A stretch of 64,000 bases of DNA. Origin: Escherichia phage finno. Below, piece by piece: positions 3,354 to 44,925 of this stretch (its first letter is position 1; every line of letters starts with the position of its first letter). The DNA is taken from sequence record MN850619.1; one strand, 5' to 3'. Position numbers and translations under genes: made by a program. Under the pieces are notes generated by a model, which worked only from the letters and a program-made list of their open reading frames with translations, did no database searches and was not told the DNA's origin.

Positions 3354-3623
3354 TTACTTCCTCGTTTTAAGAATTGCTAAGATTTCTTTAGAGTCTGGTA
3401 AGAACCATGTGTAGTGATTCTCTTTGATTTCTGGATGAGTGTCAACCTTTATTTTGCAGTCTTTACCAACATGCTTAAGTTGTGCTGTGACACCTTGCAT
3501 AAGGATATGACACATCACATTATCCATAATGGTTGGTATGAAGTCAATTCGCATATAAGTTTCTTTTGGTCGCGGTAACAGTAAGTACCCCTCTACATAG
3601 AAAGTATCTTGATTCTCTGTCAT
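3354..3623 (-). CDS. hypothetical protein
   Basis: 89 aa ORF. Confidence 0.5.
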   Translation of the reverse strand: MTENQDTFYVEGYLLLPRPKETYMRIDFIPTIMDNVMCHILMQGVTAQLKHVGKDCKIKVDTHPEIKENHYTWFLPDSKEILAILKTRK

Positions 3624-4183: not shown

Positions 4184-4648
4184 TTAACCGAGGACTTTAG
4201 CAAGGACATTTGCAGCCATCGAAGAAGCTTTTGCAGCAGCAGCTACCCCAGCTTTGACAGTGCTATCCTTGATAGCAGATACCGTTGCAGCATCAGTAAA
4301 GAGATAAGTAGTTGTTTTAGAACCACTTGTAAAGGAAAGCATGAGAGCAGTTTCCAGATTGAAAGAGCGATACGGAGCACCTTCTTTAACGATACCTTCA
4401 GCACCTAATTCTGAAGCCATCCCCATATCATAGATGGTCATCAGGTTTTCTTTGTGTGCTGTCGTTGAGCCAGAACCTTTTACGTGTTTCTTAACATTCA
4501 AAAGAGCACGATACTCTCGGATGTTGCCGTCTGCTTTTACATTGACAGCACGGAAGATTTTACCCTCAAAGTTGCTCTTGATAATGTTACGAACTACTTC
4601 AGATTTGTTTGCCGTAACGTCCAGTGCTACCGTAATGATATTGTTCAT
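4184..4648 (-). CDS. hypothetical protein
   Basis: 154 aa ORF. Confidence 0.55.
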   Translation of the reverse strand: MNNIITVALDVTANKSEVVRNIIKSNFEGKIFRAVNVKADGNIREYRALLNVKKHVKGSGSTTAHKENLMTIYDMGMASELGAEGIVKEGAPYRSFNLETALMLSFTSGSKTTTYLFTDAATVSAIKDSTVKAGVAAAAKASSMAANVLAKVLG

Positions 4649-35410: not shown

Positions 35411-35471
35411 TTAGTATTGACAAGGTGCTCAGGGAAGAGTACCTTATACTATATCTTGTATAGGAGGGCTT

Positions 35472-35681
35472 ATGAGCCACCGTGGAAGAACCCATGCAGC
35501 GATGATGAAAGGTGCTTCAAAGGAAACTATCAAGAACCGTAAGCAGAAGTTGTTTGAGAGAATGAACAGGTTAATTGACAATTCATCTCTTTCAGGTTCT
35601 GAGAAGGTTTTCTTGAAAGGTAATCTGAAAAGTATTGCACAAGAACTTATTGATATTGAGTATTGGAGACATCAAAAATGA
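35472..35681 (+). CDS. hypothetical protein
   Basis: 69 aa ORF. Confidence 0.5.
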   Translation: MSHRGRTHAAMMKGASKETIKNRKQKLFERMNRLIDNSSLSGSEKVFLKGNLKSIAQELIDIEYWRHQK

Positions 35682-35896
35682 CACTTGCAGACGTTATTCA
35701 GCAACTTCACGACAATTGCTATACTCCAGAGTTGATTCAGGAGATGTCCATTGTAGTGATGCCTAGCAAGTTCGTAAAAGGTTTTAATGGTGACTCTTTA
35801 AAGGTCGCGCATATCCTTATCGTTGATGGTAAGATTGCAAGAGACCGTACAGGTGTTCTTAAGGGTGAACGTATTGATATTCTGGAGTTGCTATGA
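35678..35896 (+). CDS. hypothetical protein
   Basis: Start moved to ATG at 35678 (MTLADVIQQ) with GGAGA RBS. Confidence 0.5.
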   Translation: MTLADVIQQLHDNCYTPELIQEMSIVVMPSKFVKGFNGDSLKVAHILIVDGKIARDRTGVLKGERIDILELL

Positions 35897-36039
35897 AGAA
35901 AATGTACAGTCTCTGGGGAAGGGTTGGTAAAGGTTTTGACTGGACACTTCTTCGTTCAAACGTTAAACGTAGTGAATTACCAGAACTCATCACTCACTAT
36001 TTAAAAACATACAGAGAGGTAGACTATCGTGAACAATAA
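35893..36039 (+). CDS. possible small ORF (48 aa, not in ORF track)
   Basis: ATGA overlap with upstream stop; but overlaps the GTG start of the following lipoprotein gene, so uncertain. Confidence 0.25.
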   Translation: MKKMYSLWGRVGKGFDWTLLRSNVKRSELPELITHYLKTYREVDYREQ

Positions 36040-36286
36040 GGTTAAGAGTTGTGTGAAAGCAATGGTTGCACTTGGAGTAATTTTTCTATCTGGCTGCAAC
36101 CCCTCTTATGAAGATAAAAATGCTTCTTACAGCCTCCCACCAGAGATGCAAGATTGCAGAGTATACAAGTTACATGGTGATGCTATAAGCAGAGATATTG
36201 TTGTTGTCAGATGCCCAAACTCTCAAACAACAACATCTTACAGCTATGGCAAAAATGGGGAATCACATACTACGGTTATTGAGTGA
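36029..36286 (+). CDS. putative lipoprotein
   Basis: GTG start with GAGAGG RBS; signal peptide with lipobox FLSGC. Confidence 0.5.
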   Translation: MNNKVKSCVKAMVALGVIFLSGCNPSYEDKNASYSLPPEMQDCRVYKLHGDAISRDIVVVRCPNSQTTTSYSYGKNGESHTTVIE

Positions 36287-36296
36287 GGTTTTCACG

Positions 36297-36503
36297 ATGG
36301 AAGTCCTAGTAAACTACATCTACTGTTATGATGTTGTTCACTCCACTACAACCGTAGCTCAACGTAATCCAATAGTTCCACGAGAAGGTGAGCTGGTTCG
36401 CATTGATGGTTGGATTTACACTGTGGAAAGCATCATTCATAAGTTTGATGTTGCTGGTGATGTTCAAGTTATTGACGTAGAGATTGGCGGTAAGAGAAAA
36501 TGA
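36297..36503 (+). CDS. hypothetical protein
   Basis: Start moved to ATG at 36297 with GAGG RBS to avoid long overlap with upstream gene. Confidence 0.45.
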   Translation: MEVLVNYIYCYDVVHSTTTVAQRNPIVPREGELVRIDGWIYTVESIIHKFDVAGDVQVIDVEIGGKRK

Positions 36504-36718
36504 CTGTAGAAGATAAATTTAAGAACGCAGTTCTTACAGAAGATGGTGAGCTTGAAACATTCATTCTTCGTGTTGATGGTAAGCTATTCCGGTGTCGTTG
36601 TGGGTCAAACTGTTTCCATAAACCAGATAAAAATGACTTAGAGCTTTACGCATGTAATGCTTGCAATACTTGGTATCACTCAGAGGTTAAAAATGACAAT
36701 TCTGTACAAACAAAATAA
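36500..36718 (+). CDS. small zinc-ribbon protein
   Basis: CRCGSNC and CNACNTW cysteine pairs. Confidence 0.5.
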   Translation: MTVEDKFKNAVLTEDGELETFILRVDGKLFRCRCGSNCFHKPDKNDLELYACNACNTWYHSEVKNDNSVQTK

Positions 36719-37793
36719 AGATGGTTCCTTCAACGTCTGGTCATGCGTTGCTGTAGGTGACAAAGTTATTACAACCTATGGTAAAGAAAATGGCAAAATG
36801 ATGTTTGAAGAGTATACAGCAGAACCTAAAAACATCGGTAAAAAGAATGAGCGTAATGCTGAACAGCAAGCTCTCTTTGAAGTTGCTGCTAAGTATAAAA
36901 AGCAAGTTGACCGTAAAGGTTATGCTTACACAAAAGAGTCTGCACAGAATACTGAGAAGGTAGGTGTACAGCTTGCTCATGATGCTGCAAAGGTTAGCCA
37001 TGCAAAGTATCTGAAGTTCCCTGCTGATGCTCAACCAAAACTGGATGGTGTACGTTGTAGAATTTCAAGAGATGCTGATTCAGTTAGCTTCACGGCTTAT
37101 TCTCGTGAGAATACTGTTTACAACGTTCCAGCAGAACTAATCCCAGATTTGCTTTTGTTGCTTAAATTACATCCACAAGTTGAAGACTTTGATGGTGAGA
37201 TTTATGCTCATGGTTGGGACTTAGAAGATATTGTATCTATGATTAAGAATGCTGACAATCCAGACCGTCACCTTCTTAAATTCTACTGGTATGATATCTG
37301 TGACAATTCAAAATCTTGGCCTGAGCGTCGTGAAGTTATTGATAACTCACCTATTGTTGAGCTTGGGGATACCTGTAGAGTTGTTCCTGTGCAGACTATC
37401 CGTGTAAATTCTTGGGAAGAGTTTGATGAAGCTCATGATAAGTGGGTTGAAGCTAAGTTTGAAGGTGCAATGTACCGTTCAATCTCTGAAGACTCCCTCT
37501 ATGAGTGTTGTCACCGTTCATACTTCTTGATTAAGCACAAGAAGATGCACACTGAAGAGTTTAAAGTGACTGGTGTAAAGACTGATAAACGTGGGCATGG
37601 TAAGTTCGTTGTAGAGACTCTTCCTAACGTCTTTGTAGATGTCTCATGGAAGACCACTCATGAGAAGAAACAGTATCTTGCTGAGCATCCTGAAGAGTTT
37701 ATCGGGAAACCTTTGACGGTTCAGTTCCAGAAGATGACTCGTAAGGGTTCTTTACAGTTCCCTGTCGGGCTAGTTATTAGGGATTATGAGTAA
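36693..37793 (+). CDS. ATP-dependent DNA ligase
   Basis: Adenylation motif I KLDGVR; size matches T7-type ligases; start set to ATG at 36693 with GAGG RBS. Confidence 0.8.
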   Translation: MTILYKQNKDGSFNVWSCVAVGDKVITTYGKENGKMMFEEYTAEPKNIGKKNERNAEQQALFEVAAKYKKQVDRKGYAYTKESAQNTEKVGVQLAHDAAKVSHAKYLKFPADAQPKLDGVRCRISRDADSVSFTAYSRENTVYNVPAELIPDLLLLLKLHPQVEDFDGEIYAHGWDLEDIVSMIKNADNPDRHLLKFYWYDICDNSKSWPERREVIDNSPIVELGDTCRVVPVQTIRVNSWEEFDEAHDKWVEAKFEGAMYRSISEDSLYECCHRSYFLIKHKKMHTEEFKVTGVKTDKRGHGKFVVETLPNVFVDVSWKTTHEKKQYLAEHPEEFIGKPLTVQFQKMTRKGSLQFPVGLVIRDYE

Positions 37794-37796
37794 ACT

Positions 37797-37943
37797 ATGT
37801 TAAGTACAATCATTCTGTTTGCATTAGTTATCTTTGTGTTGTCTTACATCACAAGTAAGCTTTTGAACACATCCTTTGCAATGGGTTTCTTGTTCACAAT
37901 CTTCTGTTTTGCAACACATATAGCTATCAGGGCTTTTATATAA
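37797..37943 (+). CDS. small membrane protein with two hydrophobic helices (48 aa, not in ORF track)
   Basis: Hand translation MLSTIILFALVIFVLSYITSKLLNTSFAMGFLFTIFCFATHIAIRAFI. Confidence 0.35.
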   Translation: MLSTIILFALVIFVLSYITSKLLNTSFAMGFLFTIFCFATHIAIRAFI

Positions 37944-37949
37944 AAGTTG

Positions 37950-37977
37950 TTGACATAGAAAATATGGTGAGTATACT
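37950..37977 (+). promoter_or_regulatory. sigma70-type promoter
   Basis: TTGACA, 16 nt spacer, TATACT; the -10 lies in a stem GGTGAGTA...TACTCACC. Confidence 0.55.
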
Positions 37978-38225
37978 GAGCAGCATAAACCAACGGGTAC
38001 TCACCAGCATCACTTAAGAGTCTTCTAAAAGGGTTTTTAAGTCATGTATTGCACGGTAAGGTGATGTGAAGTCTGGTCTGGCATGGTGTAGTCTGGTATG
38101 GAAGGATGGCAGTAGCCTTATAAAAAATCTGCCAAATAAGCTATAAAATCTGTTGACAAGTCAGGTGTTATAGCTTATTTTTATACTCAATGTAATACAA
38201 AATTTAATATAGCTTTGAGGTCATT

Positions 38226-38609
38226 ATGAAAAAGATTTTATTAGCTGCTGCAATGGTTATGGCAATGAATTTACCAGTCAATGCAACAGAACTTCCAAAT
38301 GTGGACTTATCAGGTGTTCCAGAAGATACTTGCCAGATTGTAAAAGGTGTTGCTCTAGCTAATGGTGAGCTACTTAAACCAATCTCTGAAGAATCTTTGA
38401 CAGAGATGACTGATAAGGTGACTGACTACCAGTATCGTGTTCTTGCAGAGTATTTCCTGCAATCTGCAAATATTAAAGAGAAGCACCATGATGATATTGA
38501 TGTACAGGCGATGCTCAACCACCGTATCCAGTTTAAAGAAGATTTGATGCAAAAAGCTATGTATGGTGTTGAGTATTTCTTAGAAAACAGAAGCTGCACA
38601 GGTATTTGA
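38226..38609 (+). CDS. secreted/periplasmic protein
   Basis: Signal peptide MKKILLAAAMVMAMNLPVNA; GAGG RBS. Confidence 0.6.
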   Translation: MKKILLAAAMVMAMNLPVNATELPNVDLSGVPEDTCQIVKGVALANGELLKPISEESLTEMTDKVTDYQYRVLAEYFLQSANIKEKHHDDIDVQAMLNHRIQFKEDLMQKAMYGVEYFLENRSCTGI

Positions 38610-38610
38610 T

Positions 38611-38823
38611 ATGGCTCTTAAAAAGTTACATCCCAGAAGCGGTTATGGTAAGATAATTGATGATACAGACGGCTTTACAGTCTTTACAGTCATCTGTCAA
38701 GATGATTCACAGATTGAAAAGGCTCTTGATGATTATCTTAACGATGAACGTGAAAAGGTTAGGGCTACAAACATAGATTCATTGATTGACACTTCACGCA
38801 AACGGAAGAAGAAAGATGAATGA
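38611..38823 (+). CDS. hypothetical protein
   Basis: 70 aa ORF. Confidence 0.5.
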   Translation: MALKKLHPRSGYGKIIDDTDGFTVFTVICQDDSQIEKALDDYLNDEREKVRATNIDSLIDTSRKRKKKDE

Positions 38824-39115
38824 GGTTTTTGACCCTTATGCCCCACAAGATGATTGGGAGGCTGATAGAGAGGCTGAAATGGAGAGTTATATTTGTCCAA
38901 TGGATGTAGACGAGATGAGAGATTTCGTTGCACATCGTTTTAAGAGAGAGATTAAATCCAGAGGTCTTTCTCAAGAGCAAGTTGCTAAAATTTGTGGTAT
39001 CTCTCAAGCTCGTGTATCCAACATAATCCACCTCACTGGGAATGTCTCTCTTGAGTATATGTTGGGAGTCTGTGAAAAATTTGGTGTTAATTTTAATTTA
39101 AGGTTGGCAGATTAA
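38816..39115 (+). CDS. helix-turn-helix DNA-binding protein
   Basis: EQVAKICGISQARVSNII resembles an HTH recognition helix; start set to ATG at 38816. Confidence 0.5.
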   Translation: MNEVFDPYAPQDDWEADREAEMESYICPMDVDEMRDFVAHRFKREIKSRGLSQEQVAKICGISQARVSNIIHLTGNVSLEYMLGVCEKFGVNFNLRLAD

Positions 39116-39116
39116 T

Positions 39117-39476
39117 ATGAAACGTGAAAACATTATCCACTCTGAAAACTTTGCATTAGGCTTTTATGGTGTGCCTACTCACCTTGAGAAGTATTATGGT
39201 GTAAAGATTCTTTCCAATCTCATTATGGCTTACAAAGATGGTAAGATTAAGCATACTGAGAAGAAACGTGTCATGGGCTATATGGCTGTAGGTTCAGCAA
39301 TCTCGAACATTAAGTTGGAAACAACTAGCAGTCAGATTGTAAAAGACCACTTCATCAAAGAGCTTTACCAAAATCTTGATGGTGTAGATGTTCAGGCTGT
39401 TTGGCTGGATGTTGATGGTCACAACTACACAAGTTTTGTTTTCAAAAACGATGACATTAAGTGCTTGTTCCCATAA
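39117..39476 (+). CDS. hypothetical protein
   Basis: 119 aa ORF. Confidence 0.55.
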   Translation: MKRENIIHSENFALGFYGVPTHLEKYYGVKILSNLIMAYKDGKIKHTEKKRVMGYMAVGSAISNIKLETTSSQIVKDHFIKELYQNLDGVDVQAVWLDVDGHNYTSFVFKNDDIKCLFP

Positions 39477-39489
39477 TAGGTGATTAACT

Positions 39490-40005
39490 ATGATTGATAT
39501 CTTCTTACAAGATGCTCATGCAGATTTCCTTAAAGAGATACTTAAAAAGTTTATGGCTTCACAGTATGAGAATGAAGCATCTTTTAAAATAGTTATATGT
39601 GGCGATGAAGCTGGTTTTGTTGAGATTGAGCATGAAGGTACTGGAAAGACTGTTTGTAAGTTACCTGATAGTATGTTCTCTAAAACGTTCTTAACAAAGA
39701 CTAGTATAAATGTTAAGCTTGTACCGCAGATTGAAACATACTCTGGTACAGATTACCCTAAAGGTTTCAAGTCACTAATGAAGTATTTCTTAGATGACTT
39801 TGTGAGTAATCTTCTGAGGGAGGTAAAAGAAAGTCGTACAGTGTTAACTGTAGAGAATACAGGAGGCACTATAAGGGTTACTTCTGACTGTTTTGTTATG
39901 AGCCTCTTCGACTTCGTTCCTAAGAACTTTGATGGTATTCTGGATGAAGAAGATGACTGTGTAGACTTTATATTGGTTCTTGAGCCAGTTTTTGAGGTTA
40001 AGTAA
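39490..40005 (+). CDS. hypothetical protein
   Basis: 171 aa ORF. Confidence 0.55.
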   Translation: MIDIFLQDAHADFLKEILKKFMASQYENEASFKIVICGDEAGFVEIEHEGTGKTVCKLPDSMFSKTFLTKTSINVKLVPQIETYSGTDYPKGFKSLMKYFLDDFVSNLLREVKESRTVLTVENTGGTIRVTSDCFVMSLFDFVPKNFDGILDEEDDCVDFILVLEPVFEVK

Positions 40006-40266
40006 ATGAAAATTGAACACTGCTATGAGTCTGATGGAACACCTATCCGATGTCCACATTGTGGATGTACAGACTTGCAAGGTGAAGTTCATGTGATTGT
40101 TAATGGTCATATAGCTGAAGAGAGTACGACATGTGTTGGTTGTGGTGAGCATATATCATTCTGGGCTTATGGTTCATACCAACCCACACCACACTTAATC
40201 TACCATAGCAATAAAGCTGTGAAGAATGTTATCAACTGGTTTATTAAGAAAGGATTTACAAAATGA
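40006..40266 (+). CDS. small zinc-ribbon protein
   Basis: CPHCGC and CVGCGEH cysteine pairs. Confidence 0.5.
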   Translation: MKIEHCYESDGTPIRCPHCGCTDLQGEVHVIVNGHIAEESTTCVGCGEHISFWAYGSYQPTPHLIYHSNKAVKNVINWFIKKGFTK

Positions 40267-40808
40267 TTAAATTAATCTTTGCAAGTGGTGAAAATGGGGA
40301 GTTTGGTACTCCAACTGGTATGCCGTGGCCTCAACATAAGGAAGACATGCAAGAGTTTAAGAGACTCACTAAAGACAACTTAGTAGTAATGGGTAACGAG
40401 ACTTTCAAGACTCTGGGAAGTAAACCTTTACCTGAACGTGAAAACCTTATCTTAACAAACTCTGTTACTTATTACGGTATAGATTTTAGTAAAGATGATG
40501 TTATGTTTGCTAAAGCTCACCAAGACTCTTTTGGAGCATTTTTAAAGTATCTTGATAGTAATATTGAAGAAGACGTCTTCGTAATTGGTGGTGTAGGTAT
40601 TCTTGTCAGTGCTTTACCGTATGCTGATGTAGTGTTCCATACAGTTTTCCATGAAGTTACTGAAGAGGCAACTGTGCATCTACCTTTTGAGAATTTCTTT
40701 GATAAGTTGCATGACCGTCAAATTTTCGCTAAGATTCAGTCAAAACCATCAGCAGATGGAAAAGCAACTTTTGATATCTATACACCACAAGTAAAAGGAC
40801 ACTTTTGA
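40263..40808 (+). CDS. frd: dihydrofolate reductase
   Basis: MPWP, VVMGNETFKTLG and PLPERENLILT match DHFR signatures. Confidence 0.8.
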   Translation: MIKLIFASGENGEFGTPTGMPWPQHKEDMQEFKRLTKDNLVVMGNETFKTLGSKPLPERENLILTNSVTYYGIDFSKDDVMFAKAHQDSFGAFLKYLDSNIEEDVFVIGGVGILVSALPYADVVFHTVFHEVTEEATVHLPFENFFDKLHDRQIFAKIQSKPSADGKATFDIYTPQVKGHF

Positions 40809-40809
40809 T

Positions 40810-41709
40810 ATGTCACAAGCAGATACAAGTTACAAAAATATCCTGAACCATGTTTTATCAGTCGGTGAACTGCGTACTACACGAACTGGAGATGTTATCT
40901 CTGCATTTGCTCCACCAAAGTTTCGTTTTGACATGCGTACTGGTTTCCCACTCTTAACATCTAAACAGGTGTTTACACGGCAAGTTATTGGGGAAGCTTT
41001 ATGGTTCCTGAATGGTGAGAATAAACTTGGTGAACTCCGTTACCGTACTTGGGGTGAAAATGATGGAGAACGCTGGACTATCTGGTCGGATGATTTTAAA
41101 CGTTGGTTAAGCTCTAACTATTCTTCTGAACAAGACTGGTTAGAAGATGCAGGTGGGAGAATCTACGGGGTTCAGTGGAGAAACTTTGAAGGTCATAGTG
41201 GTTGTGTTGTAGACCAGTTAGAGACCTTAGTGACGAAGATGAAAGGTGATATCACAGACCGTTACATGCTTGTTAATGCTTGGAATGCAGCAGATATTGC
41301 AGCTAACTCAATGGCTTTAGCACCTTGTCATGTTCTGTTTCAGATTTATATCACTAACGAGGGTGAAGTTGATTTACAATGGTATCAACGTTCTGTAGAC
41401 ACCTTTTTAGGACTTCCATTTAACATTGCATCCTACGGTTTTATTCTGGAAGTTCTTTGTAAGATGACTGGATACACTCCACGATACTTGATAGGTGTCT
41501 TTGGGGATACTCAGATTTATCAGAATCATATGAAGCAGGTTTATGAACTGATGAACAATGAAGAGTTCCATGCACCAACTTTTGAGATTGGTCTACAACT
41601 TAATACTTTAAGTGACCTGAAACATCTTACTGCAAGTGACTTTATCGGTGGAATTAGTAACTACCAACATGCAGGAAAGATTGAAGCACCTTTGTCAGTA
41701 GGTAAGTAG
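40810..41709 (+). CDS. td: thymidylate synthase
   Basis: Active-site ALAPCH with catalytic Cys; N-terminal RTGTG-like motif TRTGDV; uninterrupted 299 aa. Confidence 0.85.
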   Translation: MSQADTSYKNILNHVLSVGELRTTRTGDVISAFAPPKFRFDMRTGFPLLTSKQVFTRQVIGEALWFLNGENKLGELRYRTWGENDGERWTIWSDDFKRWLSSNYSSEQDWLEDAGGRIYGVQWRNFEGHSGCVVDQLETLVTKMKGDITDRYMLVNAWNAADIAANSMALAPCHVLFQIYITNEGEVDLQWYQRSVDTFLGLPFNIASYGFILEVLCKMTGYTPRYLIGVFGDTQIYQNHMKQVYELMNNEEFHAPTFEIGLQLNTLSDLKHLTASDFIGGISNYQHAGKIEAPLSVGK

Positions 41710-41711
41710 AA

Positions 41712-41756
41712 ACAAAAAAGGCTCCCGTAAAAAGGAGCCTTAAAATTTTATTTTTC
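41712..41756. terminator. bidirectional rho-independent terminator between convergent blocks
   Basis: AAGGCTCC-CGTAAAA-AGGAGCCTT hairpin flanked by A-run and TTTTATTTTT. Confidence 0.75.
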
Positions 41757-42119
41757 AGTATTCTTTGTGTTCTTTTCAGTAATAGCTTGGAGGGCTGATA
41801 CTGATTGAGCCAGATTGTTAACACTATCAGAGAATTTATCAAGAGTCTTGGTAAGTTTTGCGTTCTCTCCCTTAACATTCTCTAACTGGACTTTCTGGTT
41901 CTCCATCCCTAGCTGAAGCAGCCTCATATCAGACTGTAAATCACGAATAGCTGAATAATTGCTTTTGGAATAATTATCTAGCTGTTGTAACTTTGTTGTG
42001 ATAGACACTTCTTGTTTACCATCCGAAACTTGCATGGTGGTATACATCCCAATAACACTAAAAATACCAACTACAATTGCACCAATATTATTTTTAAAAG
42101 CTTCCTCTAGCCACTTCAT
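41748..42119 (-). CDS. membrane protein with coiled-coil region
   Basis: N-terminal TM segment IGAIVVGIFSVIGMY followed by heptad-rich sequence. Confidence 0.5.
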   Translation of the reverse strand: MKWLEEAFKNNIGAIVVGIFSVIGMYTTMQVSDGKQEVSITTKLQQLDNYSKSNYSAIRDLQSDMRLLQLGMENQKVQLENVKGENAKLTKTLDKFSDSVNNLAQSVSALQAITEKNTKNTEK

Positions 42120-42393: not shown

Positions 42394-44925
42394 TTAAGCA
42401 GTTCTCACCCAAGCCATTAACTTATAGAACTGGTTAGTAACACTAAATGCTGAACCAGAACCTGTACCACCAGTGTTACCGCTAACTGTATGGCTGTGAG
42501 CACCAATACCAACACTGTGAGCATGGTTACCAGCAGAAGCAGCAGTACCAGAGATTGTGTGGGTGTGAGCACCAGCAGCATCAGTGTAACCCGGTCCTAC
42601 ACCAATACTACCACCACCACCACCAGAGTAGTGGGTAGAGTTCTGACCAATCCATGAAATAGAGTGGTTGTGGTGACCAGCAGATGAAGTAGAGCCACTT
42701 ACAGAGTGTGTGTGAGCACCAGTCGTGTTAGTGTTTTTTGTTCCGTAGTCAAACGATGAGGTAGTCGCAGAAAAACTGTGCGTGTGTGAAGGTAAGTTAC
42801 CAACAGATAACGTTACAGAATCTGAACCACCAGTTGTAGCAACATCTGAACCATTTGCTGCTGCAATTCTAATAGTTCTACCAACACCATTATTCAGATA
42901 CGTCCAAGTTAGACCAGGCAGTGCTGTATTAGGGTTAACATTACTGTTAAACCACGTTACAATACCTACTGGATAGATTTTATTAAGGTCTGTAGAGTCA
43001 CTTACTGCCTGTGCAATCTTCTGGTCAGTTTCATCTTTAGTGTATGCACCAATATCTGAAGGGGTTGGTTTTTGCAAACTAGTGTAGTATTTTGCAACTG
43101 TACCCTTCACAATACCTTGTGGTGCATCATCAAATGTCTGTGGAGCTTCAAACAACTGTACACTTGCATTACTAGAAGATTGAACTCTTGATGTTGTGTT
43201 GTTTTGGTATGGACCAACTCTACAGTAAATGTCATAAGCATCGCCAGATGTATTAACATAACCGATATCAGTGATGATGACATTATCTGATGTTCTCCAA
43301 GCCACGGCATTTAAACCTTTTGGATTGTTATTTGATGTTCGTAAAACAACCTCACACTTACCTGCTTGTTGTGGTGTATTGATATTAAAACCTGCCCCAC
43401 CAAACACTTCAATCACCGCAGTAGATGCGGATTGCGGCATTACAACAGTAGCAATTTTAACCCATTTTTCACCGTTTCCATTATTGAAGCCAGTACTTCT
43501 GATTCTCAGGTATCTGCTATCACTAGCACTTCGAGTGAAATATCTAGCATCTAAGTTAGTCCAGTCAGAAGGTTGTACTTGACCAGTAATGTCTAAACTC
43601 TTATTAGCCTTAATTACTGACGACCCAAGAGTAATTTGAGTACCAGAGTAGCTGTTGTTTAAGGCTACATCAGTAGAATTTGTTCCACCTACACCTACCC
43701 ACCACCTAGATACGTTCGCAGTATCCACACCACGGATATATTGCGGCTGCCCCTGTGTCAAGTTCTTTAATACCAAACCCTCATTGTTAGATACAATAGT
43801 TTGCACATTTGTGAAAGTATTAGACACATTAAGTTTAGGAAGATTATTCAAAGTAGCTGCTGGAATGTATCTAGAATCAATGTTAGTCCAGTCAGAAGGT
43901 TGTACTTGACCAGTGATTTTGACAGTCTTACTAAATGTTACACCAGACGCGTTTAATTTAATGGAAGTGTCCCCCTTGTAATCATAAATTGTGATATTAG
44001 AGGTTACATCACCTTTACCAATATACCACAAATTATTGTTTTCACTGTCCTTTGCTAGGATGAACAGAGTCTCATTGACCGTTTTATTTTTTAGAATGAT
44101 AGCAGCACCATCAGAGTTCACATTGACATTATTACTGAATGTGTTTAAACCACTGAAGGTGTTATTACCAACTAGCTGCGCAAATCTCTGATTAGCTGCT
44201 GTCTGAGTAAAGTATCTAGCATCTAAGTTAGAGAAGTCAGAAGGCTGAACTTGACCAGTGATTGCTAAAGATTTATTAACAGAGATATTGCTTGCAACAA
44301 TCACTGCTGAGTTGTATTTGCTGTTATACAGGCTTACTGCATCCTCGCCATTGCTACCAATACCAACCCACCATCTAGCTGAACCATCTAGGTTTACACC
44401 CTCAATGTATTGTGCATTATTTGCAATCTGGTTTCTAAGGCGAAGTGCATTACCATCACTTTGAATGTTCTGATTTCTAGAGAATGTGTTTGTTACAGCA
44501 AGCCTTGCATATCTTGCATCGTTCTCTTCATTGGTTCTCATTCCAAGCTCATTAGGACTTGGCTTATTCAAAGTGTGGTAAACAGTTGCAGACCTTGAAG
44601 CATCTGCAATAGTTAGTTTAAGACCGTTTGCATTGATTTTAAAAGCCTTTAAAACATCCCCCATAGTAATCTCAGAAGAGCCTGTAGGGTCAAATACCGC
44701 CTTACCACCATAAAGTAACTTGACAATTCCTAAGTCACCCGTCATAGTACTGCCAGCAATCTGAACAAATCTTTCAAGTTTAAAAGATGCTAAGAAGTCT
44801 TGATAGGTCATTCGACGGTCTTCATCACCCAGCATTTCAGGTCTCTTTTTAACCCTGACATGAAGAAGGTCGTCTGAACGAATTGTATCAATTGAGTTTA
44901 ATTCACTCAACTTGTAATCTGCCAT
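42394..44925 (-). CDS. long tail fibre protein with His-box C-terminal domain
   Basis: 843 aa; three internal repeats ITGQVQPSD(W/F)xN(L/I)DxRY; C-terminal HxH repeats ending MAWVRTA. Confidence 0.75.
43542..44275. repeat. three dispersed ~52 bp direct repeats inside tail fibre gene
   Basis: Near-identical stretches at about 43542-43593, 43869-43920 and 44224-44275. Confidence 0.7.

What the first reader, a model, noticed from the sequence alone, without database searches (positions are those of the whole stretch)
35472..40266. Cluster of small plus-strand genes between polymerase and folate/thymidylate genes
About a dozen small ORFs with tight or overlapping junctions (several ATGA couplings) encode a lipoprotein, a signal-peptide protein, two zinc-ribbon proteins, an HTH protein, a small two-helix membrane protein and several proteins I cannot assign. 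Such cassettes in phages often encode host-takeover, superinfection-exclusion or anti-defence functions.
Basis: inference. Interest (0 to 1): 0.45.

Follow-up and report, generated by a model that had tools for sequence, protein, structure and literature searches.

The report
Felix O1 gene block hiding orphan guide RNA

Summary
The window is a Felixounavirus. Region 35472-40266 corresponds to Felix O1 ORF94-ORF82 and is present in about 260 deposited phages. All 14 are under purifying selection, and four junctions are ATGA overlaps. Knock-out screens in the 97-100% identical phage Bas63 show a mixed block. g6 (Zn ribbon) triggers Hhe and g11 (HTH) triggers DRT7. g14 is needed except in strain DH10B. 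g4, g5 and g12 cost fitness when lost. g1, g2, g9 and g13 are dispensable. No validated anti-defence protein lies here.

The 282-bp gap (37944-38225) was unexpected. It holds a near-consensus promoter, then 12 five-nucleotide NG(T/C)NN units, then a conserved tail. This is a vrRNA of the VIPR system (2026 preprint; representative locus in phage SUSP1, at this same site). The vipr and vap genes are absent from the window. Read with the published 1-nt-skip rule, the NN code matches vipr codons 156-167 of rival phages at 20-22 of 24 positions, against 17-19 for shuffled controls. None of 22 vrRNAs from seven vipr-carrying relatives matches vipr. My best reading is a solo anti-vipr guide that would need Vipr supplied in trans. 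This function is inferred, not shown.

The parts
35417..35450 (+). P0: promoter-like site upstream of g1. TTGACA-N17-TACCTT, with TATACT 5 nt further downstream.
   Evidence: Conserved in Felixounavirus and Mooglevirus loci. Function is inferred.
35472..35681 (+). g1 (Felix O1 ORF94; Bas63 gene 45): 69 aa, pI 10.3, phrog_5180.
   Evidence: dN/dS 0-0.08. Found in 284 phage records including Kolesnikvirus. Bas63 knock-out fitness +0.6 to +0.8.
35678..35896 (+). g2 (ORF93; Bas63 gene 44): 72 aa, phrog_4230. A paralogue is present in mio and Mooglevirus.
   Evidence: Knock-out about +0.2.
35893..36039 (+). g3 (ORF92; Bas63 gene 43-like): 48 aa, phrog_2381.
   Evidence: Knock-out about -0.4, noisy.
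36029..36286 (+). g4 (ORF91; Bas63 gene 42): 85-aa lipoprotein with GTG start, lipobox LSGC and two further conserved Cys.
   Evidence: lipobox conserved in five orthologues. phrog_902. The family occurs in 583 phage records, including unrelated Vibrio, rV5-like and jumbo phages. Knock-out -0.7 to -1.4.
36297..36503 (+). g5 (ORF90; Bas63 gene 41): 68 aa, phrog_4427.
   Evidence: Knock-out -0.5 to -0.9.
36500..36718 (+). g6 (ORF89; Bas63 gene 40): 72-aa Zn ribbon (C32, C34, C38, H40, C52, C55). Often mislabelled 'DNA ligase'.
   Evidence: 97% identical to bas63_0040. Knock-out -2.2 to -3.0. Validated Hhe trigger. Homologues in Kolesnikvirus and Chaseviridae are not next to a ligase.
36693..37793 (+). 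g7: ATP-dependent DNA ligase, 366 aa (ORF88; Bas63 gene 39).
   Evidence: PF01068 at 34.4 bits (cut-off 26.2). phrog_114 at 1.5e-96. Nearest solved structures are the 6imj and Chlorella virus DNA ligases. KLDG motif.
37797..37943 (+). g8: 48-aa hydrophobic two-helix protein (Bas63 gene 38). Absent from Felix O1.
   Evidence: dN/dS 0.17-0.47.
37950..37977 (+). P1: TTGACA-N16-TATACT, matching 11 of 12 sigma-70 consensus positions. Identical to the promoter upstream of vrRNA1 in SUSP1.
37978..38039 (+). vrRNA leader with the conserved motif CACTTAAGAGTCTTCTAAAAGGGTTTTTAAGT. In SUSP1 this motif precedes both vrRNA1 and vrRNA4.
38040..38099 (+). vrRNA repeat tract: 12 units of NG(T/C)NN. AGTCA TGTAT TGCAC GGTAA GGTGA TGTGA AGTCT GGTCT GGCAT GGTGT AGTCT GGTAT.
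   Evidence: Periodicity: 10 of 14 in-phase GT, against 5-7 in shuffles. G is invariant every 5 columns across phages. Matches the vrRNA definition in the VIPR preprint. The NN code matches the vipr CDS at 20-22 of 24 positions.
38100..38140 (+). vrRNA 3' tail GGAAGGATGGCAGTAGCCTTATAAAAAATCTGCCAAATAAGC. Identical to the tail of the last SUSP1 vrRNA.
   Evidence: The hairpin GGCAG/CUGCC is predicted, but its z-score (-0.56) is not significant.
38134..38187 (+). P2: TTGACA (38153) -N17-TATTTT, then TATACT. The -35 hexamer sits inside the perfect 13-nt inverted repeat AAATAAGCTATAA-N21-TTATAGCTTATTT.
38226..38609 (+). g9 (ORF87; Bas63 gene 37): 127-aa secreted protein with a signal peptide and two conserved Cys.
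   Evidence: Only 32-34% identical between genera. Knock-out about 0.
38611..38823 (+). g10 (ORF86; Bas63 gene 36): 70 aa, phrog_4473.
   Evidence: Knock-out about -1, with very high variance.
38816..39115 (+). g11 (ORF85; Bas63 gene 35): 99-aa XRE/Cro-type HTH protein. ATG at 38816; Felix O1 annotates a TTG start at 38786.
   Evidence: PF01381 at 3.1e-9. 99% identical (98/99 aa) to bas63_0035 over the ATG-start protein; 97% over the longer TTG-start ORF. Knock-out -1.2 to -1.5. DRT7 escape mutations and DRT7 co-expression toxicity.
39117..39476 (+). g12 (ORF84; Bas63 gene 34): 119 aa, phrog_4116. Invariant motif GSAISNIKLETT.
   Evidence: Found in 300 phage records, spanning the whole subfamily. 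Knock-out -0.9 to -1.3.
39490..40005 (+). g13 (ORF83; Bas63 gene 33): 171 aa, acidic (pI 4.6), phrog_4422.
   Evidence: Knock-out about 0.
40006..40266 (+). g14 (ORF82; Bas63 gene 32): 86-aa Zn ribbon (C16, C19, C43, C46). ATGA-coupled to frd.
   Evidence: Knock-out -0.8 to -1.2 in S17, MG1655 and BW25113, but -0.14 in DH10B.
40263..41741 (+). Context: frd (40263-40808), td (40810-41709) and a bidirectional terminator (41718-41741) that closes the rightward unit.

Best explanation
Two things occupy this interval.

(1) The ORFs are the known middle section of the rightward DNA-replication and nucleotide-metabolism transcription unit of a Felix O1-type phage (pol ... ligase ... frd-td).
- They are probably transcribed from sigma-70-like promoters at 35417, 37950 and 38153. 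They are translationally coupled, and the unit ends at the terminator after td.
- The block is a mosaic of three kinds of gene. One is a replication enzyme (the ligase). Several are small proteins the phage needs for normal growth: the g6 Zn ribbon, the g11 HTH regulator, g12, the g14 Zn ribbon, the g4 lipoprotein and g5. Others are dispensable accessory proteins: g1, g2, secreted g9 and acidic g13.
- Two of the products (g6, g11) are sensed by bacterial abortive-infection systems (Hhe, DRT7).

(2) The 282-bp gap is a deleted VIPR locus.
- In about 118 related phages, this site carries vipr (an RNA-guided DNA-binding RAMP protein), vap, and three or four vrRNA genes.
- In this window, recombination between the repeated vrRNA leaders has apparently removed vipr, vap and all but one vrRNA.
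- The surviving vrRNA keeps the strong promoter, 12 repeat units and the conserved tail.
- Its variable dinucleotides spell, under the published 1-nt-skip rule, codons 156-167 of vipr itself.
- The most likely function is a solo guide. When a vipr-carrying rival (phage or satellite) is in the same cell, the guide would be loaded by the rival's Vipr protein and would send it to sit on the rival's own vipr gene, repressing it.

What is shown: gene content, selection, homology of the locus, absence of vipr, and the code match. What is inferred: expression of the RNA, its loading in trans, and repression.
For: Identity of the block:
- 259 phage records match at 80% identity or more, and gene order equals Felix O1 ORF94-82 and Bas63 genes 45-32.
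- Purifying selection acts on all 14 genes, and the junctions are coupled.
- Felix O1 RT-PCR found transcripts of ORFs 83, 84, 87-90 and 93 peaking at 25 min.

Bas63 experiments (orthologues 97-100% identical):
- Fitness tables for four hosts.
- Insertions are not polar. Knock-outs of genes 33, 37, 44 and 45 are neutral although they lie upstream of genes whose loss costs fitness.
- g40 is an Hhe trigger. Bas63-035 is a DRT7 trigger.

The vrRNA:
- 5-nt periodicity is unique in the 64-kb window and exceeds all shuffles.
- G is invariant every 5 columns while the NN positions diverge between phages.
- The preprint defines vrRNAs as 9-16 YNNGG repeats plus an invariable tail, with SUSP1 as the representative locus.
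- SUSP1 gp039 and gp038 lie between the ligase and the ORF87 orthologue. Their promoter, leader and tail are identical to the window's.
- The window has no vipr or vap (tblastn at E<=10 gives only noise).

The code match:
- 22/24 against the bumzen and SP-107 vipr alleles, 21/24 against SUSP1, Sf17 and wV8, and 20/24 against HY02.
- The match is always at CDS nt 466-500 in codon phase 0, with skip bases on wobble positions. Shuffled unit orders reach at most 17-19.
- The orphan arrays of Felix O1 and mio (21/24) also beat all or most of their shuffled controls; P219 (19/24) only ties its best control.
- 22 arrays from seven vipr-carrying phages score at background against vipr.
- Between the window, Felix O1 and mio, NN units 2-12 are identical while several GGY positions differ.
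- 57 phage records carry this array plus tail.
Against: - No expression data exist for this RNA in a vipr-less phage.
- Six of the 12 units have AGT, TGT or TGC instead of GGY. The preprint reports that perturbing GGY abolishes silencing. However, SUSP1's own fourth vrRNA has similar units.
- No Vipr is encoded in the 64-kb window, so any activity depends on another element. About 23 kb of the genome lies outside the window, although vipr sits at this site in every relative examined.
- The last unit mismatches all vipr alleles.
- The tail hairpin is not statistically better than shuffles.
- The census of vipr-carrying phages covers seven genomes, not all 118.
- For the proteins, no fold or family could be assigned to 11 of 13. 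Both AlphaFold2 models failed.
Confidence: 0.72

Rival explanations
1. One reading: the whole interval is an accessory cassette of host-takeover, superinfection-exclusion or anti-defence proteins.
For: - The left half is patchy: HY02 and P219 keep only g2 and g5, and Felix O1 lacks g8.
- A Tad2-like gene occupies this slot in phage Michonne.
- The block encodes envelope proteins g4, g8 and g9.
- g14 is neutral only in DH10B.
- Knocking out g1 raises fitness, yet g1 is conserved subfamily-wide.
Against: - A ligase sits in the middle of the block.
- g9-g14 are conserved in three genera.
- Six genes cost fitness when knocked out in defence-free laboratory strains.
- The defence-panel screen validated no counter-defence gene in genes 32-45.
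- No gene in the window hits a known anti-defence or exclusion family.
Confidence: 0.2
2. The orphan vrRNA is a functionless relic. Either it was an ancestral autoregulatory guide left behind when vipr was deleted, or it is a self-targeting guide whose appearance silenced vipr and allowed its loss.
For: - vipr and vap are absent.
- Half of the GGY triplets are degenerate.
- The deletion architecture is explained by recombination between repeated leaders.
Against: - None of 22 vrRNAs in seven vipr-carrying phages targets vipr. No living vipr-carrying relative in the sample therefore shows the proposed ancestral state.
- NN units 2-12 are conserved among the window, Felix O1 and mio while GGY positions drift.
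- P219's unit 8 (TT) fits the TTG allele of vipr, where the window's CT fits the CTG/CTA alleles.
- The near-consensus promoter is retained.
- 57 records keep the array.
Confidence: 0.3
3. g6 is a separately encoded zinc-finger module of the DNA ligase. Many GenBank records label it 'DNA ligase', and it overlaps the ligase start by 26 nt.
For: - Annotation as ligase in mio, GSP193 and others.
- The overlap with the ligase start.
- A strong knock-out phenotype.
Against: - It matches no ligase family.
- HY02, P219 and Mooglevirus have the ligase without g6.
- Homologues in Kolesnikvirus SB18 and Chaseviridae phage Papaline are not next to a ligase.
- The g6 knock-out is worse than the ligase knock-out.
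Confidence: 0.08
4. The match between the repeat array and vipr is a coincidence, and the array is something else (an iteron or origin, a G-quadruplex or R-loop element, or a protein-binding RNA).
For: I considered these readings before finding the VIPR paper. They rest on a G-rich non-template strand after a strong promoter and on the 5-nt periodicity.
Against: - The per-site probability of 22 or more matches out of 24 is about 9e-12. Over about 3.4e5 positions searched, the expected count is about 3e-6 (arithmetic).
- The hit falls in the very gene missing from this locus, in codon phase 0.
- The leader, tail and promoter are identical to the experimentally detected SUSP1 vrRNAs.
Confidence: 0.02

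Closest known systems
Felix O1 ORF94-ORF82, equivalent to Bas63 (JohannRWettstein) genes 45-32
   Same: Same genes in the same order, with 85-100% protein identity. The flanks are the same (pol upstream, frd-td downstream). The published transcription and knock-out data therefore transfer directly.
   Different: - The window has no HNH endonuclease after pol, unlike Felix O1 and Bas63.
- It has g8, which Felix O1 lacks.
- It has one vrRNA array, where Bas63 has two.
Type II VIPR system of Escherichia phage SUSP1 (bioRxiv 10.64898/2026.04.26.720920)
   Same: - Same genomic site, between the ligase and the ORF87 orthologue.
- Same promoter, leader motif, repeat architecture (conserved GGY alternating with variable NN) and 3' tail.
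- The target follows the 1-nt-skip rule, with skip bases on codon wobble positions.
   Different: - The effector vipr and accessory vap are absent.
- Only one vrRNA remains.
- Six of 12 GGY triplets are degenerate.
- The target is vipr itself rather than the satellite phage that 18 of 20 SUSP1-clade guides hit.
RNA-based anti-CRISPRs and solitary viral CRISPR repeats or mini-arrays (from my own knowledge; not checked here)
   Same: Works like: a mobile element carries only the RNA part of a rival's RNA-guided system and exploits or subverts the rival's protein.
   Different: - The system is different (Vipr, not Cas).
- Here the RNA carries a full guide aimed at the effector gene, rather than acting only as a decoy.
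- No experiment has been done.
Rac prophage Lar/RalR (TIGR03655, PF14354) for g14
   Same: A small CPxCGC...CxGC zinc ribbon. hhalign gives probability 67% over 33 columns. The PhageMaP authors label the Bas63 orthologue 'Lar' and report host-dependent need.
   Different: - g14 scores 18 bits against a cut-off of 39.6 for TIGR03655 and has no PF14354 hit.
- Only 3 of 75 family members touch PF14354.
- The family signature YWAYG..DP is not a Lar feature.
- No phage record calls it Lar.
Small phage lipoproteins that mask receptors (T5 Llp, Cor), for g4 (from my own knowledge)
   Same: A short lipoprotein made by a lytic phage.
   Different: - No sequence similarity in Pfam or the PDB.
- The Bas63 knock-out lowers fitness in a simple pooled infection (-0.7 to -1.4), which a pure exclusion protein would not be expected to do.

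Membership tests
Felixounavirus pol-to-frd gene block | Synteny with, and high identity to, Felix O1 ORF94-82 | tested here: met
ATP-dependent DNA ligase (g7) | Adenylation domain above the Pfam cut-off, with the KxDG motif | tested here: met
   PF01068 at 34.4 bits against 26.2. KLDG is visible in the sequence. phrog_114 at 1.5e-96.
ATP-dependent DNA ligase (g7) | C-terminal OB-fold domain | tested here: inconclusive
   PF14743 at 23.1 bits, below the cut-off of 28.
XRE/Cro-C1 HTH regulators (g11) | HTH_3 domain above the cut-off | tested here: met
   PF01381 at 37.1 bits against 23.
Lar restriction-alleviation family (g14) | Score above the curated cut-off of TIGR03655 or PF14354 | tested here: not met
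   18 bits against 39.6, with no PF14354 hit. hhalign against RalR gives only 67% probability.
Bacterial lipoproteins (g4) | Signal peptide ending in the lipobox [LVI][ASTVI][GAS]C | tested here: met
   LSGC at residues 20-23, after a hydrophobic segment at 5-25. Conserved in five orthologues. Lipidation itself is not testable here.
VIPR vrRNA | 9-16 tandem YNNGG units with conserved GGY and hypervariable NN | tested here: met
   12 units. G at position 2 and T/C at position 3 in all 12; the full GGY triplet in 6. The NN positions vary between phages.
VIPR vrRNA | Invariable 3' tail after the repeats | tested here: met
   The tail is identical to that of the last SUSP1 vrRNA.
VIPR vrRNA | A natural target that obeys the 1-nt-skip rule | tested here: met
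   vipr CDS nt 466-500, at 20-22 of 24 positions in codon phase 0, against controls of 17-19.
VIPR vrRNA | Expressed as a ~100-nt RNA bound by Vipr | not testable with these tools
   Shown only for SUSP1 in the preprint.
Complete VIPR system | A vipr (RAMP) gene and a vap gene next to the vrRNAs | tested here: not met
   tblastn of SUSP1 and HY02 Vipr and Vap against the window at E<=10 gives only noise.
Known anti-defence or defence protein families | A profile match for any of the 13 small proteins | tested here: not met
   Pfam, NCBIfam and PADLOC give nothing beyond generic HTH hits.

The most novel reading that the evidence does not exclude
Felix O1-type phages that have lost the VIPR effector keep a promoter-driven solo guide RNA. 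This guide hijacks the Vipr protein of a co-infecting vipr-carrying phage or satellite and turns it against that rival's own vipr gene. It would be an RNA-only, guide-encoded counter-measure in phage-versus-phage conflict, present in the classic typing phage Felix O1 itself.
Probability: 0.4. Interest if true: 0.8.

Novelty: new variant of a known kind. Interest (0 to 1): 0.55.

Why it matters
The gene cluster itself adds nothing new. It has been sequenced hundreds of times, and its orthologues have already been knocked out genome-wide.

The orphan vrRNA matters for three reasons:
- VIPR was described only in 2026, as a complete protein-plus-RNA system. A guide that survives without its protein and is aimed at that protein's gene would show that guide RNAs alone can be weapons or shields between related phages.
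- It gives a simple, testable case in well-studied phages: Felix O1, mio or skuden against wV8, HY02 or SUSP1.
- It warns that VIPR censuses based on the protein miss such loci. At least 57 phage records carry this array.

The work also corrects several database labels. g6 is not a ligase, and g14 is not a demonstrated Lar.

Tried and rejected
- **Structure prediction.** AlphaFold2 with the available alignments failed for g12 (10 sequences, pLDDT 44.7) and g13 (4 sequences, pLDDT 43.6). I therefore ran no fold search, because the matches would be meaningless.
- **Homologue searches.** The searches for g12, g13 and g6 returned only close Ounavirinae relatives.
- **Solved structures.** PDB sequence and profile searches for g4, g6, g9, g12, g13 and g14 gave nothing, or only generic Cys-spacing hits.
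- **Family scans.** Pfam, NCBIfam, PADLOC and PHROGs returned only 'unknown function' families, apart from the ligase and the HTH protein.
- **RNA families.** Rfam on the whole window gave no hits. Tandem Repeats Finder missed the array because its units are too degenerate.
- **Earlier ideas for the array.** I considered a TRAP-like RNA site, an R-loop origin, a G-quadruplex, iterons and an antisense rut site. I dropped all of them once the VIPR paper and the SUSP1 locus explained it.
- **An operator for g11.** I considered the 13-nt inverted repeat around the -35 hexamer of P2 as an operator for g11. This is weakened because Sf17 and Michonne have similar HTH proteins but different promoters.
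- **Target search in viral contigs.** An exact 10-unit search for the target pattern in viral contigs gave 0 hits.
- **Not done.** I did not mine the Bas63 defence-panel raw tables (supplement 4) gene by gene. I relied on the paper's text.

Full report
**What the window is**

The interval and its flanks match 259 deposited phage genomes at 80% nucleotide identity or more. Almost all are Felixounavirus, and the best hits are 93-96% identical. Gene order is that of Felix O1 ORF96 (DNA polymerase), ORF94 to ORF82, then frd and td. It equals Bas63 (JohannRWettstein) genes 47 to 30. GC skew flips at about 32.5 kb and 42 kb, matching a rightward transcription unit inside a mostly leftward genome.

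**Checking the observation**

There are 14 consecutive + strand genes between 35472 and 40266, covering about 95% of the interval. Four junctions are ATGA overlaps (g1/g2, g2/g3, g5/g6, g14/frd). Three more overlap by 8, 11 and 26 nt. Only one real gap exists, the 282 bp between g8 and g9.

Nei-Gojobori dN/dS against ten related loci is 0.02-0.3 for most genes. g8 is at 0.17-0.47, and the most divergent cross-genus comparisons of g2, g9 and g13 reach 0.3-0.9. The frames are therefore conserved coding sequence.

- g4 has a hydrophobic N-terminus ending in LSGC, and the lipobox Cys is kept in five orthologues.
- g9 has a signal peptide and two conserved Cys.
- g8 is hydrophobic throughout.
- g11 has HTH_3 at 3e-9.
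- g6 and g14 have invariant Cys pairs.

It hits PF01068 above its cut-off and phrog_114 at 1.5e-96, carries KLDG, and its nearest solved relatives are the 6imj and Chlorella virus DNA ligases.

**What the small proteins are**

Every one belongs to an existing PHROG of unknown function, except the ligase and the HTH protein. Pfam, NCBIfam, PADLOC and PDB sequence or profile searches add nothing. The families are narrow, so the alignments were shallow and both AlphaFold2 runs failed (g12 pLDDT 44.7, g13 pLDDT 43.6). I ran no fold search on such models.

Distribution among relatives:
- g12 is in all ~300 Ounavirinae-type records and g1 in 284. Both reach Kolesnikvirus.
- g9-g14 are in Felixounavirus, Mooglevirus and Suspvirus.
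- g1-g6 and g8 are patchy. HY02 and P219 keep only g2 and g5 left of the ligase, and Felix O1 lacks g8.
- g6 is in 225 records. In Kolesnikvirus SB18 it sits near rII and pnk. In the unrelated Erwinia phage Papaline it sits among early genes. It is therefore not a ligase module despite frequent 'DNA ligase' labels.
- The g4 lipoprotein family is in 583 records, including Vibrio, rV5-like and jumbo phages.
- The g14 family has 219 representative clusters and occurs in T4-like, Queuovirinae, Proteus and Bacillus phages.

**Published experiments that transfer directly**

The Bas63 orthologues are 97-100% identical for g1, g5, g6 and g9-g14.

In Felix O1, RT-PCR found transcripts of ORFs 83, 84, 87, 88, 89, 90 and 93 peaking at 25 min.

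The PhageMaP preprint knocked out Bas63 genes genome-wide. Its gene numbers equal the locus tags, since the product names match. The table gives the range of per-host mean fitness across four hosts.

| Bas63 gene | Window gene | Fitness range |
|---|---|---|
| 45 | g1 | +0.6 to +0.8 |
| 44 | g2 | about +0.2 |
| 43 | g3 | about -0.4 |
| 42 | g4 | -0.7 to -1.2 |
| 41 | g5 | -0.5 to -0.9 |
| 40 | g6 | -2.4 to -2.7 |
| 39 | ligase | -0.6 to -1.6 |
| 37 | g9 | about 0 |
| 36 | g10 | about -1, very noisy |
| 35 | g11 | -1.2 to -1.4 |
| 34 | g12 | -1.0 to -1.3 |
| 33 | g13 | about 0 |
| 32 | g14 | -0.8 to -1.2, but -0.14 in DH10B |
| 47 | polymerase | -1.3 to -4.0 |

Knock-outs of 33, 37, 44 and 45 are neutral although they lie upstream of genes whose loss costs fitness. 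The insertions are therefore not polar, and the defects are gene-specific (my inference).

The same study found that g40 becomes less needed on several defence strains and that its expression is toxic only with Hhe, which makes it a trigger. A 2026 preprint isolated three Bas63 escapers of DRT7. All carried start-codon or frameshift mutations in Bas63-035, and co-expression with DRT7 was toxic. So g11 is a dispensable-for-plaquing regulator that DRT7 senses.

The PhageMaP authors call gene 32 'Lar'. I tested this. g14 scores 18 bits against a cut-off of 39.6 for TIGR03655 and has no PF14354 hit. Only 3 of 75 family members touch PF14354, and hhalign against Rac RalR/Lar gives 67% probability over the ribbon only. 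Membership is not established. The DH10B-specific neutrality is real but unexplained.

**The gap**

The scan found a near-consensus promoter at 37950-37977 (TTGACA-N16-TATACT, 11 of 12 positions) and another site at 38153. Three of the four TTGACA...TATA(A/C)T sites in the 64-kb window lie in this interval on the + strand, and none of 100 shuffles gave four or more.

I aligned the gap with mio, Bas63, HY02 and Sf17. This showed a conserved leader, then a stretch in which G, and mostly T, recur every five columns while the two bases between them differ freely between phages, then a conserved tail. In the window this is 12 units at 38040-38099. Its in-phase GT count of 10 of 14 exceeds every shuffle (5-7), and no other place in the window reaches it.

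Relatives carry one to four such arrays, always on the + strand and always at this site. In HY02, Sf17, bumzen, XTG1, wV8 and FSL SP-107, two genes of 195 and 146 aa lie between the arrays. A scan of viral contigs for eight consecutive GGTNN units hit at least 120 loci, many with several degenerate arrays.

**Identification of the array**

A literature search returned the 2026 preprint on VIPR systems. It describes a phage-encoded RAMP protein (Vipr), an accessory protein (Vap), and ~100-nt vrRNAs. Each vrRNA is made of 9-16 YNNGG repeats, with conserved GGY alternating with hypervariable NN, followed by an invariable tail. The NN pairs read double-stranded DNA with one skipped base between pairs. 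The system represses competing phages and satellites.

Its representative locus is phage SUSP1. In SUSP1, gp039 (195 aa) and gp038 (146 aa) lie exactly between the ligase and the ORF87 orthologue, with 449-bp and 531-bp intergenic regions. They are 97% and 99% identical to the HY02 pair. The SUSP1 upstream region contains the window's P1 and leader verbatim. Its last downstream vrRNA ends in the window's tail, followed by P2. Vipr is in 133 phage records, 118 of them Ounavirinae at 90% identity or more.

The window encodes neither Vipr nor Vap (tblastn at E<=10 gives only noise). Its gap is what remains if recombination between the repeated leaders deletes vipr, vap and the other vrRNAs.

**What the orphan guide points at**

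I applied the preprint's rule: replace each GGY by one wildcard and search both strands. The NN series is CA AT AC AA GA GA CT CT AT GT CT AT.

Its best matches in the window plus 12 related loci fall inside the vipr coding sequence:

| vipr allele | Matched positions |
|---|---|
| bumzen | 22/24 (first 11 units perfect) |
| FSL SP-107 | 22/24 |
| SUSP1, Sf17, wV8 | 21/24 |
| HY02 | 20/24 |

The match is always at nt 466-500, codons 156-167 (QIT(K/R)EELLMVLE), in codon phase 0. The skipped bases therefore fall on wobble positions, as the preprint reports for natural targets. Shuffling the order of the units gives best scores of 17-19.

By simple arithmetic, 22 or more of 24 matches has a per-site probability of about 9e-12. 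Over about 3.4e5 positions searched, the expected count is about 3e-6.

Further observations:
- The orphan arrays of Felix O1 and mio hit the same site at 21/24, above all or most of their shuffled controls. P219 hits it at 19/24, which only ties its best shuffled control (17-19), so it adds little on its own.
- None of the 22 arrays from seven vipr-carrying phages, nor the two arrays of Bas63, scores above background against vipr.
- Among the window, Felix O1 and mio, NN units 2-12 are identical while several GGY positions differ. P219's unit 8 reads TT, fitting the TTG allele, where the window's CT fits the CTG/CTA alleles.
- 57 phage records carry this array plus tail (skuden is 100% identical). 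The rest share only the tail.
- The preprint does not mention orphan vrRNAs or Felixounavirus. It notes only that some vrRNAs in another clade target other VIPR systems.

**How it most likely works**

- *Shown:* locus homology, loss of the effector, retention of the promoter, repeats and tail, and a highly non-random code match to vipr.
- *Inferred:* the RNA is made from P1. It can be loaded only by a Vipr supplied in trans by a co-infecting vipr-carrying phage or a satellite. The complex then binds the rival's vipr gene and represses it.
- *Caveats:* half of the GGY triplets are degenerate, and the preprint says GGY perturbation abolishes silencing. However, SUSP1's own fourth vrRNA has similar units. 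There are no expression data. The tail hairpin is not significant against shuffles. About 23 kb of the genome lies outside the window.
- *Main rival:* a relic, either an inherited autoregulator or a self-targeting guide that preceded the loss of vipr.

**Verdict**

The cluster of small genes is real, but it is ordinary and already known, and it is not simply an accessory cassette. The most interesting content of the interval is non-coding: a solo VIPR guide RNA aimed at vipr. This is a new variant of a system described only months ago, and it can be tested directly in classic phages.

Noticed in passing
window 37944-38225: The only non-coding gap of the block holds a promoter, 12 NG(T/C)NN units and a conserved tail. 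This is a VIPR vrRNA without vipr or vap, and its NN code matches the vipr CDS of related phages.
   Followed up: yes
window 38134-38180: A perfect 13-nt inverted repeat, AAATAAGCTATAA-N21-TTATAGCTTATTT, encloses the -35 hexamer of promoter P2. It is unique in the window and conserved in Felixounavirus and Sf17. It may be an operator, but it does not co-vary with the HTH gene.
   Followed up: partly
window 37965-38006; L003 about 4373-4422; L005 about 3521-3566: P1-type promoters carry an inverted repeat that starts at the -10 box. Its arms differ between genera but stay complementary: GGTGAGTA/TACTCACC, CCTGACGGG/CCCGTCAGG and CCGGTAGT/ACTACCGG. The reason is unexplained.
   Followed up: partly
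L003 1978-2181 (Citrobacter phage Michonne gp40): In Mooglevirus, the variable left block carries a 67-aa gene that hits Pfam Tad2-like (Thoeris anti-defence) at 3e-5. Its score of 24.9 bits is just under the cut-off of 25. The gene is not present in the window.
   Followed up: no
window 35417-35450 and 38153-38187: Two TTGACA sites are followed by TATACT at 22-23 nt, too far apart for a standard promoter. Each has a weaker TAnnnT at 17 nt. Both begin TTGACAAG.
   Followed up: partly
L012 3507-3692 (Erwinia phage Papaline): An unannotated 61-aa ORF is a clear homologue of g6, with the same CxCGxNCFHKP...CNxC pattern, in a Chaseviridae phage.
   Followed up: partly
GenBank GU169904.1, MG065668.1, MG065664.1: Records named Staphylococcus phage SA1 and Campylobacter phages A126 and A132 carry 92-98% identical copies of this Felixounavirus region. 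They are probably contaminated or mislabelled assemblies.
   Followed up: no
window 42394-44925 (- strand): An 843-aa tail-fibre-like protein with three internal repeats ('[10 protein letters not shown](T/S)N(L/I)D(A/S)RY') and a C-terminal run of HxH motifs (HTHS, HNHS, HAHS).
   Followed up: no
L125, L074, L021, L028 (IMG/VR contigs): Some viral contigs carry 7 to 23 separate degenerate GGTNN arrays. These are presumably large vrRNA arrays of other VIPR types. Their contexts were not examined.
   Followed up: no
window 41718-41741: A bidirectional intrinsic terminator lies between td (+ strand) and the convergent holin-like gene at 41748-42119 (- strand). It matches the Felix O1 terminators t79 and t80.
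   Followed up: no
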